A DNA stretch of 17,548 bases from a phage. Below are positions 1,532 through 17,548 of the stretch, one piece after another. Every line of letters begins with the position of its first letter. Position 1 is the stretch's first letter. Below the pieces are notes generated by a model. The model was not told the DNA's origin. It saw nothing but the letters and a program-made list of their open reading frames with translations, and made no database searches. The position numbers and the translations under genes were made by a program. The DNA lies in NCBI GenBank assembly GCA_025289735.1, contig GCA_025289735.1_4764.3; one strand, given 5' to 3'.

Positions 1532-1558
1532 AGCGGGGATTATCTCCCCGCTTTTCTA
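1532..1558 (+). terminator. Rho-independent terminator or attenuator after the gp36-like gene
   Basis: Hairpin AGCGGGGA-ttatc-TCCCCGCT directly followed by TTTTCT, 5 nt after the stop codon at 1525..1527. Confidence 0.6.
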
Positions 1559-4644: not shown

Positions 4645-4662
4645 GCGGGGAGAAATCCCCGC
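4645..4662 (+). other. Stable stem-loop (GCGGGGA-GAAA-TCCCCGC) between gp37 and the downstream gene, no U-tract
   Basis: 7-bp GC-rich stem with a GNRA-type GAAA tetraloop 9 nt after the gp37 stop. Followed by TAAGGATCTT (the RBS of the next gene) rather than a T-run, so more likely an RNA stability or processing element than a terminator. Confidence 0.5.
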
Positions 4663-8838: not shown

Positions 8839-9639
8839 TTAACCCTTCTTATATTCGCAAACATATTGAGTACCATAATCATAGCTAATGCGACCTTTCT
8901 CGATGACTTCAAAGCGGATTTCATCGTTTTCCCCTACCCACATTTTGTACTCGTTGAAGTATCCTGCTACATCCGGTTTGCTCATACCAACAACCATATT
9001 TTTATATTGTTTGCTGCGTGTCAGATTTGATTTAAACACTTCGCGCTCATCAACATATACGAAAGAAGACAATTCACCTTCGGTCATGGTCATTTTCAGC
9101 TTGCCGCCCTTGTTGCCATAAGTAGAGTTGCCATACAATGGATCTTTGCGGCTGTCTGTTTCAATACCATCAATGATTTTCCATGTAAATTTTGCAATGC
9201 ACTGGTAAGTGATAGATCCAGAGATTTTCTCTTCTTTCTTCTGTTCTTCCACCACTTTTTCTTCCTGTTTCGGTTGTTCTTCTTCAACCTTCACAGAAGT
9301 CTCTGAATCGCTTTCTGACGCGGTTTCTTCTTTAGGTAATACATTCATCAAGTTTTGGATTTGAGCGTGATATACAGCCTCCAGTGGCTGAATTTTCCCG
9401 ATATTGATCATTGTATCACGAACAGTTTTATTCCAGTTGCGTTGCTCTTGTTTCAGAGACGGATCAATCTTAACAGCCTTAACATATACTTCATGAAGTT
9501 TAGAATCAAGTGCGGAGATAGACTCATTAGCACAAATAAACTTCTCTGATTTGGTAGTAGCTTTAGCGCAATCAAAGGACGCAGCATTAGCACCGAAAGC
9601 AGTAGCAGAAAGAACGATAGCAGCGATAATGTTTTTCAT
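8839..9639 (-). CDS. Secreted protein with N-terminal LprI/DUF1311-like domain, charged linker and C-terminal beta-rich domain (266 aa)
   Basis: ATG with GAGGAA 8 nt upstream, directly downstream of promoter cassette P3. Signal peptide MKNIIAAIVLSATAFGANA|AS. Then FDCAKATTKSEKFICANESISALDSKLHEVY...QEQRNWNKTVRD, fitting the DUF1311 pattern as I recall it (C..A.T..E..IC...LD..L..Y...Q..W...RD). E/K-rich linker. C-terminal domain with two Cys and an SGSITY motif. Confidence 0.7.
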   Translation of the reverse strand: MKNIIAAIVLSATAFGANAASFDCAKATTKSEKFICANESISALDSKLHEVYVKAVKIDPSLKQEQRNWNKTVRDTMINIGKIQPLEAVYHAQIQNLMNVLPKEETASESDSETSVKVEEEQPKQEEKVVEEQKKEEKISGSITYQCIAKFTWKIIDGIETDSRKDPLYGNSTYGNKGGKLKMTMTEGELSSFVYVDEREVFKSNLTRSKQYKNMVVGMSKPDVAGYFNEYKMWVGENDEIRFEVIEKGRISYDYGTQYVCEYKKG

Positions 9640-9702: not shown

Positions 9703-9709
9703 CTACTTT

Positions 9710-9865
9710 TTAAATTTCTTCTACAGTAAAGTCTTCAATGTTGTTGTGCTCGGAGAACGTTGCCAGACCAGCATTCCATGCATCATCCTCAGAGAAGAAT
9801 ACACCGTAACGTTCATATCCCTTAGCGCCTTCAAATTTAACCATTAATTTGTGAGTATGTTTCAT
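9710..9865 (-). CDS. Hypothetical early protein (51 aa), acidic
   Basis: ATG at 9863..9865 with AAGGAG 7 nt upstream, downstream of P4. The track ORF start at 9898 lies inside the promoter. Confidence 0.5.
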   Translation of the reverse strand: MKHTHKLMVKFEGAKGYERYGVFFSEDDAWNAGLATFSEHNNIEDFTVEEI

Positions 9866-9896
9866 TTTGATTCTCCTTAGTTGTCTTGATGAGTTC

Positions 9897-9925
9897 ATTA
9901 TAGGGGATCACCGATCCCCTGTCAA
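9897..9925 (-). promoter_or_regulatory. Sigma70-like early promoter P4 (-35 TTGACA, palindromic 17-nt spacer, -10 TATAAT)
   Basis: Minus-strand GTTGACA-GGGGATCGGTGATCCCC-TATAAT. The spacer is a perfect inverted repeat containing two GATC sites. Confidence 0.6.
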
Positions 9926-9933
9926 CAACTATT

Positions 9934-10146
9934 TTAATGTTTACCCACGCGTAAATTAATGCGCATTTTCTGCATAGCCATGATCTGGTTTACTGCTTCT
10001 TCTTTACGTTCTTGCGTGATAACGTGACCAGATTCCGCAAACTCTCCCGCAACTTCTTCTACAATCTCGCGAACTTGAGAACGTCCAAAGATGCGGTTTC
10101 CTTCGTAGCTCATAAATTCAGTCACTACTTGCTCAATAGATTTCAT
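9934..10146 (-). CDS. Hypothetical early protein (70 aa)
   Basis: ATG with AAGGAG 7 nt upstream, downstream of P1. Confidence 0.55.
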   Translation of the reverse strand: MKSIEQVVTEFMSYEGNRIFGRSQVREIVEEVAGEFAESGHVITQERKEEAVNQIMAMQKMRINLRVGKH

Positions 10147-10207: not shown

Positions 10208-10214
10208 CTGGTTT

Positions 10215-10457
10215 TTAGAAATTTTTCGCTTCTTCTTCGGTAATCATAACCGCGCATTCGTGCATAACTTTGAAAACCGGATCAATCATGTCGAATGCTT
10301 CGCGGGACAGTTTACGAGAAGCGATTTTGATTGCTTCAACGTCTTCGACTACAGGAACAAAAACAGTTTTCAGTTCATCGAGAACGGCAGCTTCTTTTTC
10401 ATTCAGGAAGATCCCAGCGTCGTACAGTGCAACTTCGATAACATTAACTTTAACCAT
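10215..10457 (-). CDS. Hypothetical early protein (80 aa), acidic
   Basis: ATG at 10455..10457 with GGAGGAAA upstream, downstream of P2. The track N-terminal extension is a translation of the promoter. Confidence 0.55.
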   Translation of the reverse strand: MVKVNVIEVALYDAGIFLNEKEAAVLDELKTVFVPVVEDVEAIKIASRKLSREAFDMIDPVFKVMHECAVMITEEEAKNF

Positions 10458-10491
10458 TTTTATTTCCTCCAGTTCGTTTCGGTATGGGAGT

Positions 10492-10520
10492 ATAATACTA
10501 CCGATGACCTTTGGCGTCAA
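10492..10520 (-). promoter_or_regulatory. Sigma70-like early promoter P2 (-35 TTGACG, 17-nt spacer, -10 TATTAT)
   Basis: Minus-strand acaaaaaactaGTTGACG-N17-TATTAT followed by the conserved leader ATACTCCCATACCGAAAC. Overlaps the 3' end of the upstream gene. Confidence 0.6.
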
Positions 10521-10722
10521 CTAGTTTTTTGTTATTTTCGTGAAAATTTTTCGTCGCCTCATGTGCTTTTCGCTGGGCTTCTTGTTGTGCTTGCTGGCGT
10601 GCTGCCTCTTGCGATGCCATAACAGACGCATTTGCAGCAGTTACAGCCGCGACCATCGCTGCGGTATTAGCATTTACCGTACATGCACTAGCCAGCAAAG
10701 CAATTGCAATCATTTTCTTCAT
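10498..10722 (-). CDS. Small secreted protein or lipoprotein (74 aa) with Gln/Ala-rich helical mature region
   Basis: ATG with AAGGGG 6 nt upstream, overlapping the upstream stop (ATGA). N-terminus MKKMIAIALLASAC has a lipobox-like LASAC; an alternative signal peptidase I site lies at VNA|NT. Mature part QEAARQQAQQEAQRKAHEATK. Confidence 0.6.
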   Translation of the reverse strand: MKKMIAIALLASACTVNANTAAMVAAVTAANASVMASQEAARQQAQQEAQRKAHEATKNFHENNKKLVDAKGHR

Positions 10723-10889
10723 AGTTTCCCCTTTATGTTATCTTCGACCTTCATCCATTCCGCGTATTCTTGTGCGGCTACTTTCGGATTTAAGCCGTCT
10801 TCGTACATTGCATCAAGTAATTCTTTGTCGGTGGGCTTATACCCTAGATAAGCCTCCACCTGATTTTTCCAAATTTTATACCAGTTCAT
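10719..10889 (-). CDS. Hypothetical early protein (56 aa)
   Basis: Internal ATG (MNWYKIWKNQ...) with GGTGAT 4 nt upstream. The longer track ORF would overlap the upstream gene by 65 nt. Confidence 0.45.
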   Translation of the reverse strand: MNWYKIWKNQVEAYLGYKPTDKELLDAMYEDGLNPKVAAQEYAEWMKVEDNIKGKL

Positions 10890-11235: not shown

Positions 11236-11267
11236 AAAATAAAAAAGCCGACCACAAGGATCGGCTT
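11236..11267 (-). terminator. Rho-independent terminator (minus strand) after the 131-aa gene
   Basis: Minus-strand hairpin AGCCGA ... TCGGCT (6 bp, 9-nt loop) followed by TTTTTTATTTT. Confidence 0.6.
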
Positions 11268-15485: not shown

Positions 15486-17548
15486 TTAAAATTTAACATT
15501 CTTAACCAGTTTCATAAAGTCTTGTGCGCGTTTGTCATTATGAAGAATACGATACCAGTTATCTACAATATCATACAGTAACGGGCTATTCTCTTTAAAC
15601 TTCGCACAAACTGCTTTAATTCGTTCGTTTGCTGCCGTGAATTTTTCGTCACAGATCTTTTTAGTTTCTTCGTCCATGATCCAACGAGTACGAAGGAGTA
15701 ACTTGGAAACCTCTTTATTATAATGACGACCGTACAGTCTGTCAATAAATTCTGGAACACAGCGTTCTAATTCATCGTCATGATACAACATAGTGATCAC
15801 GCCCAGATATTCGCCATACCCCAGATGATTGGTCTTAACCTTCTTAGCCAGACCAGCCAGCTTACCGCGAACAAATTCTAGCGCACATTCCAATTGTTCG
15901 TCAACGAGATATTTTTGTGTCTCGTTTCGAGTAATAATATACTTTGTTACCCCGAAGTAGTCAAGCGCCGTGTGTAATGTATTTTCACTATAGATCGATT
16001 GACGGCTACGGCTTTCGAATGCATCACCTACGCGGAACATATGCAAGCCTGATAACTCGCGAATCTCTGCCGCTTTCATGTGATGGCTGGTTTTATGCCA
16101 ACTGTCACCAATCTTTTCCATGATATACACGTTAGGCAGCTTGGGAGTAGCTTCACGTTGTGTACGCTCGGTCTTCTCCGGTTTAACTGCTTTAGCACGC
16201 AGATCATCGGCCTCAGACACTTTAATCACGGTCATTTCAGAATCATCATAATACTGTTTGATGTACTCGAAAGTCTCCATATGTTTTTCGTTGTTCTGAC
16301 GGAACACCAGTACCTTTTTATTGATGCCGTATTCCTGGACCATGCCGTTAAGAGTCAGTGCACGCAGTTTCGGTTTATCGGTATCATCAATAAGACACGT
16401 AATATCTTCTTTATGCATCCATACAAAATGCGTAATGTTGTATTGACTGCTAACGAAAGCAGGGCGCAATTTACTGATTGTGTGACGAGTACGATACAGA
16501 GTATACACCTGACCTTCTACGTCATTAGGCGAATCTTTACCCGCATTAACAAACTTATTATAGATTGCTACCGGATCATCCCATTGCCCGATCTTACCCA
16601 TCTTGCTAATAATATTTCGTTGCGTCGATGAATACTCGCTCATAAATTGCGCAAGTTTACGCTCTGTTTTAATGTTGGCGATCTTCTCTTTGACCTTTTC
16701 CAACATCATTTCATTGATTTCTGCAATGCGTTTTTCGATGTTCGCTTTAGTCTCAATTGACAAGTGAACTTCTTCACGCGATGGCATCAGGTCCAGATCA
16801 CCCAACTCAAAATTAATGTAAATGGTCTGGTGCTGGCGGTTTACAGCTTCTAACCATGTTCCGCGAACATATTCATACGGGATCGGATACTGGATCTTAC
16901 CCATGATTGCATATACTACATAGGAATCGTTATCACGCCCATTACACACATAATAATTATCAAAGCTAGGGAAATAATTAATTTCGATTGCATTGATATT
17001 AGGTTTGTGTTCCCCAAAATGACGAAGTACAAATTGTGCTTCTCGATGCCATGTCTGAATGTCTTTTTCTTTCACCGGAATAGTGATTTTCAGACCATTG
17101 TCTTCATAGGTCGGTTCGTCGAAAATCTGCACCATTTTCGGCATAGAGTTTTGCACAAATGCCGTAAAGCCATAAGCGCGACCATTGTAGTAGTTTACGA
17201 TTGTAAAGGTGTCAGTATAGCTATAAGCAGACTTCGCACCTAAACCAAAAGATCCGATATAATCATTAGTCTGGTCTTTGGTTGATTCAAAGTAAACCGT
17301 AAACAGTTGTTCTAATTCTTTCTTAGACGGAATACCAGTACCATAATCACGCACAGAAAAATACGGTTCAATTGCGGTAGGCAAATGAATATCAAACGGA
17401 CGATCTAAGGTTCCGGCTTCTTTGTGAGTGTCGGTAGCATTGCACGAATACTCACGGACGCAAGCACGCTCACAATATTGATAAGTGTTCTTAGAAAGCA
17501 CCATAAAAGCCTTGCTACTTGCTTTCAGTGAAAAATCAACCGCACCGC
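15486..17548 (-). CDS. rIIA: rIIA protein, 5'-truncated by the window edge (GHKL-type ATPase fold at the N-terminus)
   Basis: Reading frame stays open upstream of the track Met to the window end (...GAVDFSLKASSKAF-MVLSK...). SKAF, VREYSCNATDTH, DRPFDIHLP, VRDYGTGIP, DYIGSFGLGAKSAYSYTDTF and IEINYFPSFDNYY parallel recalled T4 rIIA N-terminal motifs. Position is upstream of rIIB as in T4. Confidence 0.85.
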   Translation of the reverse strand, partial: GAVDFSLKASSKAFMVLSKNTYQYCERACVREYSCNATDTHKEAGTLDRPFDIHLPTAIEPYFSVRDYGTGIPSKKELEQLFTVYFESTKDQTNDYIGSFGLGAKSAYSYTDTFTIVNYYNGRAYGFTAFVQNSMPKMVQIFDEPTYEDNGLKITIPVKEKDIQTWHREAQFVLRHFGEHKPNINAIEINYFPSFDNYYVCNGRDNDSYVVYAIMGKIQYPIPYEYVRGTWLEAVNRQHQTIYINFELGDLDLMPSREEVHLSIETKANIEKRIAEINEMMLEKVKEKIANIKTERKLAQFMSEYSSTQRNIISKMGKIGQWDDPVAIYNKFVNAGKDSPNDVEGQVYTLYRTRHTISKLRPAFVSSQYNITHFVWMHKEDITCLIDDTDKPKLRALTLNGMVQEYGINKKVLVFRQNNEKHMETFEYIKQYYDDSEMTVIKVSEADDLRAKAVKPEKTERTQREATPKLPNVYIMEKIGDSWHKTSHHMKAAEIRELSGLHMFRVGDAFESRSRQSIYSENTLHTALDYFGVTKYIITRNETQKYLVDEQLECALEFVRGKLAGLAKKVKTNHLGYGEYLGVITMLYHDDELERCVPEFIDRLYGRHYNKEVSKLLLRTRWIMDEETKKICDEKFTAANERIKAVCAKFKENSPLLYDIVDNWYRILHNDKRAQDFMKLVKNVKF

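What the first reader, a model, noticed from the sequence alone, without database searches (positions are those of the whole stretch)
9897..9925. Promoter P4 carries a perfect 17-bp palindrome (GGGGATC-ggt-GATCCCC) with two GATC sites as its spacer
The other four cassettes have non-palindromic spacers. Here the whole -35/-10 spacer is an inverted repeat, which could be an operator for a dimeric regulator, a methylation-sensitive switch through the two GATC sites, or a hairpin that also terminates the upstream gene.
Basis: seen in the sequence. Interest (0 to 1): 0.45.

Follow-up and report, generated by a model that had tools for sequence, protein, structure and literature searches.

The report
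Known phage promoter-terminator cassette (PeSL)
The palindrome is real, but it is an ordinary copy of an already described cassette of RB49-like T4-type phages, in which a consensus early promoter carries a GC-rich hairpin between its two boxes that stops transcripts arriving from the gene upstream.

Summary
On the minus strand, 9925..9897 reads TTGACA-GGGGATCGGTGATCCCC-TATAAT. That is a 12/12 sigma-70 consensus whose 17-nt spacer is a 7+3+7 inverted repeat (8+3+8 with the adjoining A and T) holding two GATC.

The window is a Krischvirus (RB49-like) phage. The element is a PeSL (promoter-early stem-loop), described for RB49 and phi1 by Arbiol et al. 2010 and Comeau et al. 2014. Placing the stem-loop between -35 and -10 is one of the two commonest of five published layouts.

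- The identical 29-mer is RB49's PeSL206/205. That paper tested a PeSL206/205 clone as a promoter, and a sister stem-loop (PeSL211/210) as a terminator.
- Both arms are invariant in 14 orthologous sites; only the loop varies.
- The other four cassettes in the window also carry stem-loops, placed over the -10 or upstream of the -35.
- In GEC-3S, and apparently in about 25 other relatives, the whole P4-plus-ORF module is missing. This fits the published PeSL recombination model.

The GATC pair looks incidental. Sister PeSLs keep the stem while losing one or both GATC, and unrelated phage contigs have G4...C4 spacer hairpins without GATC.

The Dam-switch and operator readings are not excluded but lack support. 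Novelty: already known. Interest is low.

The parts
9863..9936 (-). Whole PeSL cassette 'P4'. It runs from the stop codon TAA (9936..9934) of the upstream 70-aa ORFan to the ATG (9865..9863) of the downstream 51-aa ORFan.
   Evidence: Sequence. The layout matches the PeSL definition in Arbiol 2010. About 80 bp is 80-85% identical to paralogous PeSLs in RB49.
9926..9933 (-). AT-rich stretch upstream of the -35 (aaatagtt g). The indel junctions seen in relatives lie here.
   Evidence: Alignments; blast breakpoints. [quoted passage not shown]
9920..9925 (-). -35 hexamer TTGACA.
   Evidence: 12/12 match. Invariant in 12 relatives.
9903..9919 (-). 17-nt spacer, which is the stem-loop GGGGATC-GGT-GATCCCC. 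The arms are 9919-9913 and 9909-9903, and the loop is 9912-9910. The GATC sites are at 9916-9913 and 9909-9906.
   Evidence: The RNA hairpin has 8 pairs, with an MFE of -14.6 kcal/mol in a 53-nt context and -18.3 kcal/mol in an 80-nt context (z = -2.2). The arms are invariant and the loop is GGT, GGC or GCC in orthologues.
9897..9902 (-). -10 hexamer TATAAT. Most relatives have TATACT and W115 has TACAAT.
9873..9878 (-). Shine-Dalgarno sequence AAGGAG of the conserved 'aaggagaatcaaaATG' box.
   Evidence: The same box follows the PeSLs listed.
9710..9865 (-). Downstream 51-aa ORFan driven by P4 (homologue of RB49p263 / ORF261c; phrog_19699, function unknown).
9934..10146 (-). Upstream 70-aa ORFan (homologue of RB49p264 / ORF262c; phrog_14966, function unknown). 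Its transcript, started at P3, runs into the P4 hairpin 13 nt after the stop codon.

Best explanation
P4 is a PeSL (promoter-early stem-loop) of an RB49-like Krischvirus, of the subclass whose stem-loop fills the -35/-10 spacer. It does three things.

1. As duplex DNA it is a very strong sigma-70 early promoter for the 51-aa ORFan. Transcription starts about 7 nt after the -10 (near 9890, inferred), so P4's own transcript does not contain the hairpin.
2. Transcripts started at the upstream cassette P3 read through the 70-aa ORF into the spacer. There the RNA folds into an 8-bp GC-rich hairpin that terminates or attenuates them. Each ORFan cassette is thereby insulated.
3. The roughly 75-100-bp cassette is repeated many times in the genome. 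It therefore serves as a site of homologous exchange that adds, removes and swaps ORFan modules.

The two GATC are part of the stem sequence of one PeSL sequence family and are not themselves the functional feature.

What is shown and what is inferred:
- Shown in the literature on the same or sister sequences: promoter activity and reduced downstream expression.
- Shown here: membership, conservation, the paralogous copies, and the presence or absence of the module.
- Inferred: that this particular copy terminates transcription.
For: Identity of the phage:
- The window is 95-97% identical to Krischvirus genomes.

Fit to the published element:
- Arbiol 2010 defines PeSLs as an upstream stop codon, an AT-rich stretch, a consensus -35 and -10, a stem-loop often made of polyG then polyC, then an SD and ATG.
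- The paper gives five subclasses by stem-loop position. 'Between -35 and -10' is one of the two commonest.
- Comeau 2014 gives the RB49/phi1 type as TTGACA-N17-TATAAT with a Gn-loop-Cn stem.

Experimental tests on sister copies:
- The RB49 census finds the identical 29-mer at 121736, which is PeSL206/205. It also finds the same stem family at 158969 (the orthologue), 43031, 122881, 123294 (PeSL211/210), 117409, 33335 and 115033.
- A wild-type PeSL206/205 clone gave about 13,000 Miller units.
- The PeSL211/210 stem-loop cut lacZ expression about as much as rrnB T1.

Conservation and annotation:
- Orthologous sites keep both arms invariant, with variation only in the loop.
- The Makalu_001 annotators marked this hairpin as a terminator.

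Recombination:
- GEC-3S lacks exactly the P4-plus-ORF module, with the junction in the AT-rich stretch.
- Phi1 and E26 have an extra ORF inserted immediately upstream of P4. The window has a 523-bp insertion abutting P3.

Stem rather than GATC:
- Sister stems GGGGAG/CTCCCC (a compensatory change) and CGGGGA/TCCCCG carry no GATC.
- In unrelated IMG/VR contigs, the unconstrained inner spacer positions pair in 39 of 68 cases against 25% expected (p = 1e-8), without paired GATC sites.
Against: - The hairpin is followed by UAUAAUGA, with only 3 U in 8. It fails the canonical intrinsic-terminator rule and was not listed by the scan.
- The published terminator test used a sister stem-loop, not this one, and it measured lacZ output rather than RNA 3' ends.
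- I could not see supplementary figure S1. I also could not establish whether the tested PeSL206/205 was the RB49 version (identical core) or the phi1 version (loop ACC, -10 TATACT).
- Invariant arms give no covariation evidence at the orthologous site.
- The G.U versus A.C asymmetry test for function at the RNA level was inconclusive.
Confidence: 0.85

Rival explanations
1. The hairpin works at the RNA level but not as a terminator. It would be a 3'-end protector against exonucleases, or a processing site for the upstream ORFan mRNA. Termination would happen elsewhere or not at all.
For: There is no U-tract after the stem. The published assay measured reduced lacZ expression, not transcript ends. 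The hairpin is stable.
Against: The authors report an effect comparable to rrnB T1 for a sister stem-loop placed between a promoter and lacZ. A pure stabiliser of upstream RNA would not predict that. A hairpin with the same style of stem after a late gene does carry a T-run (1532-1552).
Confidence: 0.08
2. Dam-sensitive switch. The methylation state of the two spacer GATC changes P4 activity. For example, hemimethylation after replication, possibly with SeqA binding, could help shut off this subset of early promoters.
For: Six of 62 RB49 consensus promoters have two GATC in the spacer. The lineage encodes Dam (RB49p063). RB49 cytosines are unmodified. The PeSL papers never mention GATC or methylation, so the idea is untested.
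Against: - All six promoters are copies of one stem family, so they are not independent events.
- Paralogues keep the stem but lose one GATC (GGGGATcacgtATCCCC, GGGGGTC...GATCCCC) or both (GGGGAG...CTCCCC).
- GATC is neither enriched nor avoided genome-wide (observed/expected 1.07).
- Packaged DNA made in the presence of phage and host Dam should be fully methylated when early promoters fire (inference).
- Sigma-70 makes few base-specific contacts in the spacer (established knowledge).
Confidence: 0.04
3. Operator. The inverted repeat binds a dimeric phage or host regulator that represses P4.
For: It is a perfect inverted repeat centred in the promoter, and its arms are invariant in 14 orthologous sites.
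Against: - In other PeSLs the stem-loop sits over the -10, over the -35, upstream or downstream, and has different arm sequences. This fits a structural requirement rather than a recognition sequence.
- Neighbouring ORFs show no DNA-binding domain.
- T4-type phages shut off early transcription by global changes to RNA polymerase (established knowledge).
Confidence: 0.02
4. DNA-level cruciform that attracts a junction nuclease (endonuclease VII, gp49) and so starts the recombination seen at PeSLs.
For: PeSLs are indel junctions. RB49 encodes gp49. The authors saw the stem-loops block sequencing reactions on single strands.
Against: A 7-8-bp stem with a 3-nt loop is short for cruciform extrusion. 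The single-strand DNA fold is only -7.2 kcal/mol. The observed junctions lie in the AT-rich stretch upstream of the -35, not in the palindrome. Plain homologous exchange between ~80-bp repeats is enough to explain them.
Confidence: 0.01

Closest known systems
PeSL (promoter-early stem-loop) cassettes of RB49/phi1, subclass with the stem-loop between -35 and -10 (Arbiol et al. 2010, PMC2839356; Comeau et al. 2014, PMC4122927)
   Same: It has every component in the same order: upstream stop codon, AT-rich stretch, TTGACA-N17-TATAAT, Gn-loop-Cn stem, 'aggagaatcaaa' SD and ATG. It lies in a hyperplastic region between ORFans. Its 29-nt core is identical to RB49 PeSL206/205, and it is orthologous to the RB49 cassette between RB49p264 and RB49p263.
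   Different: There is no difference in kind. This copy has loop GGT and a perfect TATAAT, whereas most orthologues have loop GGC and TATACT. The papers do not comment on the twin GATC.
Canonical rho-independent (intrinsic) terminators
   Same: A GC-rich hairpin lies just after a stop codon.
   Different: No U-tract follows it (3 U in 8), and it was not called by the consensus scan. The terminator-like hairpin upstream of P1 (11267..11245) does have a T-run.
Dam-regulated promoters with GATC in the promoter, such as IS10 transposase pIN and the pap switch (from my own knowledge, not tested here)
   Same: GATC sites lie inside a promoter, in a genome exposed to Dam.
   Different: In those systems the GATC overlaps the -10 or -35, or a regulator site, and is conserved as such. 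Here the GATC lie in the spacer and are lost in sister copies that keep the stem.

Membership tests
PeSL (RB49/phi1 type) | Near-perfect sigma-70 promoter, TTGACA-N17-TATAAT | tested here: met
   12/12 match with a 17-nt spacer. Definition taken.
PeSL (RB49/phi1 type) | Stable stem-loop of Gn-loop-Cn type in one of five positions relative to the promoter | tested here: met
   GGGGATC-GGT-GATCCCC fills the spacer. The predicted hairpin has 8 pairs. The subclass 'between -35 and -10' is listed.
PeSL (RB49/phi1 type) | Intergenic position, with an upstream stop codon and AT-rich stretch before the -35, then an SD and start codon of a downstream ORF(an) | tested here: met
   Stop codon at 9936..9934, AT-rich stretch at 9933..9926, SD at 9878..9873 and ATG at 9865..9863. 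Both flanking ORFs are of unknown function.
PeSL (RB49/phi1 type) | A repeated element: sequence similarity over roughly 100 bp to other PeSLs of the same genome type | tested here: met
   Window 9858-9942 matches three paralogous RB49 PeSLs at 80-85% identity. Each related genome holds 5-10 matching places. The exact 29-mer occurs at non-orthologous sites.
PeSL (RB49/phi1 type) | Location in a hyperplastic region and association with ORF gain or loss between close relatives | tested here: met
   The P4-plus-ORF module is absent in GEC-3S. Phi1 and E26 carry an extra ORF next to P4, and the window has an insertion next to P3.
PeSL (RB49/phi1 type) | Early promoter activity in vivo | not testable with these tools
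   The literature reports about 13,000 Miller units for PeSL206/205. Its RB49 version has the identical 29-nt core.
PeSL (RB49/phi1 type) | The stem-loop terminates or attenuates upstream transcription | not testable with these tools
   The literature reports that the stem-loop of PeSL211/210 (GGGGATcacgtATCCCC in RB49) lowers lacZ about as much as rrnB T1. This copy has not been tested.
Canonical intrinsic terminator | GC-rich hairpin followed directly by a U-rich tract | tested here: not met
   The hairpin is present, but the tail is UAUAAUGA. It is not reported by the scan, which requires at least 5 T in 8.
Dam-methylation-controlled promoter | GATC sites conserved as such at functionally critical promoter or regulator positions | tested here: not met
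   The GATC are conserved at the orthologous site. Sister PeSLs with an intact stem have lost them, and unrelated spacer hairpins lack paired GATC sites.
Dam-methylation-controlled promoter | Promoter activity depends on methylation state | not testable with these tools
   This needs reporter assays in dam+ and dam- hosts.

The most novel reading that the evidence does not exclude
The twin GATC in the spacer of one PeSL family (6 of 62 consensus promoters in RB49) would make these early promoters sensitive to hemimethylation. After the first round of phage replication, they would be bound (for example by SeqA) or weakened. That would give a replication-coupled shut-off of a subset of early ORFan genes in a T4-type phage that has unmodified cytosine and its own Dam.
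Probability: 0.04. Interest if true: 0.55.

Novelty: already known. Interest (0 to 1): 0.12.

Why it matters
It matters mainly for annotation. The five "cassettes" in this window are PeSLs. This explains why small ORFans here each have a consensus promoter and a hairpin, and why gene content differs between close relatives exactly at these sites. Nothing here goes beyond Arbiol 2010 and Comeau 2014, apart from one small unaddressed detail. One PeSL stem family carries two Dam sites in the spacer, which could be tested cheaply with dam+ and dam- reporters.

Tried and rejected
- **Chance.** Rejected on conservation and recurrence.
- **Broad IMG/VR scans.** Two patterns were tried: AGTTGTTGACR-N17-TAYAMT and TTGACR-N17-TAYAMT-RCACMCAT. 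The narrower pattern TTGACRGGG-N10-CCCCTAYAMT worked.
- **G.U versus A.C mismatch asymmetry.** This was meant to show that the stem works in sense-strand RNA. There were too few mismatched stems in RB49, so it is inconclusive.
- **Outer helix.** RNAfold predicted UAGUUGUU pairing with GACAACUA around the hairpin. The upstream arm varies in relatives (AGATG, AGCGG, AATAG) with no compensating change, so I do not treat it as real.
- **Rfam.** No family matched anywhere in the window.
- **Pfam and PHROGs on the flanking ORFs.** No DNA-binding regulator was found that could use the palindrome as an operator.
- **Supplementary figure S1 of Arbiol 2010.** It holds the promoter and terminator assay data, but it is not held as text.
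- **GATC usage.** There is a modest excess in the window (81 observed against 64 +/- 7 in shuffles), but a ratio of 1.07 genome-wide in RB49. This gives no signal of selection for or against Dam sites.

Full report
**1. The observation**

Read on the minus strand, window 9925..9897 is TTGACA GGGGATCGGTGATCCCC TATAAT. The consensus scan scores it 12 of 12 with a 17-nt spacer. It is one of only two such sites in the 17.5-kb window.

The spacer is a 7-bp inverted repeat (GGGGATC / GATCCCC) around a 3-nt centre (GGT). It holds two GATC, at 9916-9913 and 9909-9906. With the last A of the -35 and the first T of the -10, the repeat becomes 8+3+8.

The element sits between two small ORFs:
- Upstream, the stop codon TAA (9936..9934) of a 70-aa ORF.
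- Downstream, the box aaggagaatcaaaATG (ATG at 9865..9863) of a 51-aa ORF.

**2. What the window is**

The region is 95-97% identical to Krischvirus genomes: RB49, phi1, JSE, GEC-3S, the Makalu phages, SSG23 and others. Against RB49 the window spans the distal tail-fibre genes, holin t, a hyperplastic region of small ORFans, gene 52, rIIB and rIIA. Both ORFs that flank the finding belong to PHROG families of unknown function and have no Pfam domain.

**3. What the element is**

Arbiol et al. 2010 (PMC2839356) described about 50 repeated "PeSL" cassettes (promoter-early stem-loop) in each of RB49 and phi1. [quoted passage not shown]

The paper distinguishes five subclasses by where the stem-loop sits. 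[quoted passage not shown] Comeau et al. 2014 (PMC4122927) summarise the RB49/phi1 type as TTGACA...N17...TATAAT with a Gn-loop-Cn stem. P4 meets every one of these features.

The other four cassettes in the window are PeSLs of the other layouts:
- P3 (10207..10179) has GGGAGTA-gtaata-TACTCCC across its -10.
- P5 (9702..9674) has a 6-bp stem across its -10.
- P2 (10520..10492) has an interrupted stem across its -10.
- P1 (11226..11198) is preceded by a canonical terminator hairpin with a T-run at 11267..11245.

P4 is therefore not an exception among the cassettes.

**4. Copies elsewhere**

I joined the whole RB49 genome and listed near-consensus promoters followed by an SD and a start codon. 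There were 62. Spacer-filling stems of the same family occur at these RB49 positions:

| RB49 position | Identity | Stem or note |
|---|---|---|
| 158969 | orthologue of P4 | loop GGC, -10 TATACT |
| 121736 | PeSL206/205 | 29-mer identical to the window's P4 |
| 43031 | paralogue | same stem, loop GGT, -10 TATACT |
| 122881 | paralogue | loop ACC |
| 123294 | PeSL211/210 | GGGGATcacgtATCCCC |
| 117409, 33335 | paralogues | TTGACG then GGGATC-nnnn-GATCCCC |
| 115033 | paralogue | one G.T pair |

GATC-free stems also occur. GGGGAG-gataa-CTCCCC is found at 117165 and 58416. CGGGGA-gaaa-TCCCCG is found at 134549 and 25338.

The exact 29-mer also lies between unrelated genes in two IMG/VR Krischvirus contigs.

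The published experiments used exactly these sister copies. A wild-type PeSL206/205 clone gave about 13,000 Miller units. The stem-loop of PeSL211/210 reduced lacZ about as much as rrnB T1.

**5. Conservation at the orthologous site**

In 12 aligned relatives the -35, both arms and the SD box are invariant. The loop is GGT, GGC or GCC, and the -10 is TATAAT, TATACT or TACAAT. Two IMG/VR orthologues agree.

Variation confined to the loop fits selection on the stem. Because the arms never vary, there is no covariation evidence at this site. Evidence for the stem comes from the paralogues instead. GGGGAT/ATCCCC against GGGGAG/CTCCCC is a change on both sides that keeps the pair.

**6. Recombination**

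Three comparisons show indels bounded by PeSLs.
- GEC-3S lacks the P4 PeSL together with its 51-aa ORF. The 70-aa ORF is followed directly by the P5 PeSL, and the junction lies in the AT-rich stretch upstream of the -35. About 25 further records also seem to lack the module, because their best match to the P4 region is a paralogous PeSL elsewhere in the genome.
- Phi1 and E26 have an extra ORF (263.1) inserted between the 70-aa ORF and P4.
- Relative to RB49, the window has a 523-bp insertion (10209-10731) that abuts the -35 of P3 and holds two ORFans and PeSL P2.

These are the PeSL-bounded indels that the published model predicts.

**7. The GATC pair**

RB49 encodes Dam (RB49p063) and has unmodified cytosine, so the sites are presumably methylated. 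Six of 62 RB49 promoters have two GATC in the spacer, but all six are copies of one stem family.

Several observations point to the stem, not the GATC, as the conserved feature:
- Sister copies keep the stem while losing one or both GATC.
- Genome-wide GATC usage is unremarkable (observed/expected 1.07).
- In 17 distinct spacers from unrelated IMG/VR contigs matching TTGACR-GGG-N10-CCCC-TAYAMT, the four unconstrained inner positions pair in 39 of 68 cases against 25% expected (p = 1e-8). None has paired GATC sites.

The recurring feature is therefore a GC-rich hairpin in the spacer, and GATC is a lineage-specific detail. Neither PeSL paper mentions GATC or methylation. A methylation effect is thus untested, but nothing here supports it.

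**8. Mechanism and its weak point**

The RNA hairpin is stable. It has 8 pairs, with -14.6 kcal/mol in a 53-nt context and -18.3 kcal/mol in an 80-nt context, z = -2.2. It lies 13 nt after the upstream stop codon.

It is followed by UAUAAUGA rather than a U-tract, so it fails the canonical terminator rule. The annotators of Makalu_001 nevertheless marked it as a terminator.

The published test used a sister stem-loop and measured reporter output rather than RNA ends. I therefore keep a modest rival: the hairpin may act as a 3'-end protector or processing site. The operator and cruciform readings have little support (see the rival explanations).

**9. Verdict**

The finding is real, but it is a standard, already published element. 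It is a new copy of a known PeSL subclass in one more Krischvirus genome. Novelty: already known. Interest is low.

Noticed in passing
window ~9705-9931 (minus strand); L298 330-425: The P4 PeSL and its 51-aa ORF form one module. GEC-3S lacks it, and apparently so do about 25 other Krischvirus records. The junction lies in the AT-rich stretch upstream of the -35 of P4 and P5.
   Followed up: partly
window 10209-10731: This 523-bp stretch is an insertion relative to RB49. It holds two ORFans with no PHROG or Pfam match (80 aa at 10457..10218; 74 aa at 10722..10501, with a signal-peptide-like N-terminus) and PeSL P2. It abuts the -35 of P3.
   Followed up: partly
window 10492-10520 (minus strand): The -35 and spacer of P2 lie inside the 3' end of the upstream 74-aa ORF. 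Its stop codon TAG (10500-10498) abuts the -10, so this PeSL is partly coding.
   Followed up: no
window 8839-9639 (minus strand): The 266-aa ORF downstream of P5 has an N-terminal match to Pfam LprI, a lysozyme inhibitor (PF07007, E = 8e-5, 23.4 bits against a cut-off of 22). It also has a hydrophobic N-terminus.
   Followed up: no
window 1532-1552 and 4645-4662 (plus strand): GCGGGGA...TCCCCGC hairpins follow the two large late tail-fibre ORFs. The first has a T-run and the second does not. The stem is the same one used as a promoter spacer in RB49 PeSLs at 134549 and 25338.
   Followed up: partly
window 15717-15745 (minus strand): This is the second 12/12 consensus promoter of the window. 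It lies inside the 3' part of the rIIA homologue, upstream of a 43-aa ORF and rIIB, and it has no stem-loop in its spacer.
   Followed up: no
IMG/VR loci L261, L266, L268, L271, L272, L283, L294: Unrelated viral contigs, some 170-366 kb long, carry TTGACA-N17-TATAAT/TATACT promoters whose spacer is a G4-5...C4-5 hairpin of 6-7 bp, with no paired GATC sites. The spacer-hairpin layout therefore reaches beyond the phages in the PeSL papers.
   Followed up: partly
RB49 121736 vs phi1 PeSL206/205 (L020 8029-8104): At the orthologous PeSL206/205 site, RB49 has loop GGT with TATAAT. Phi1 has the reverse-complement loop ACC with TATACT. This looks like gene conversion from a sister PeSL, or inversion of the loop.
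   Followed up: no
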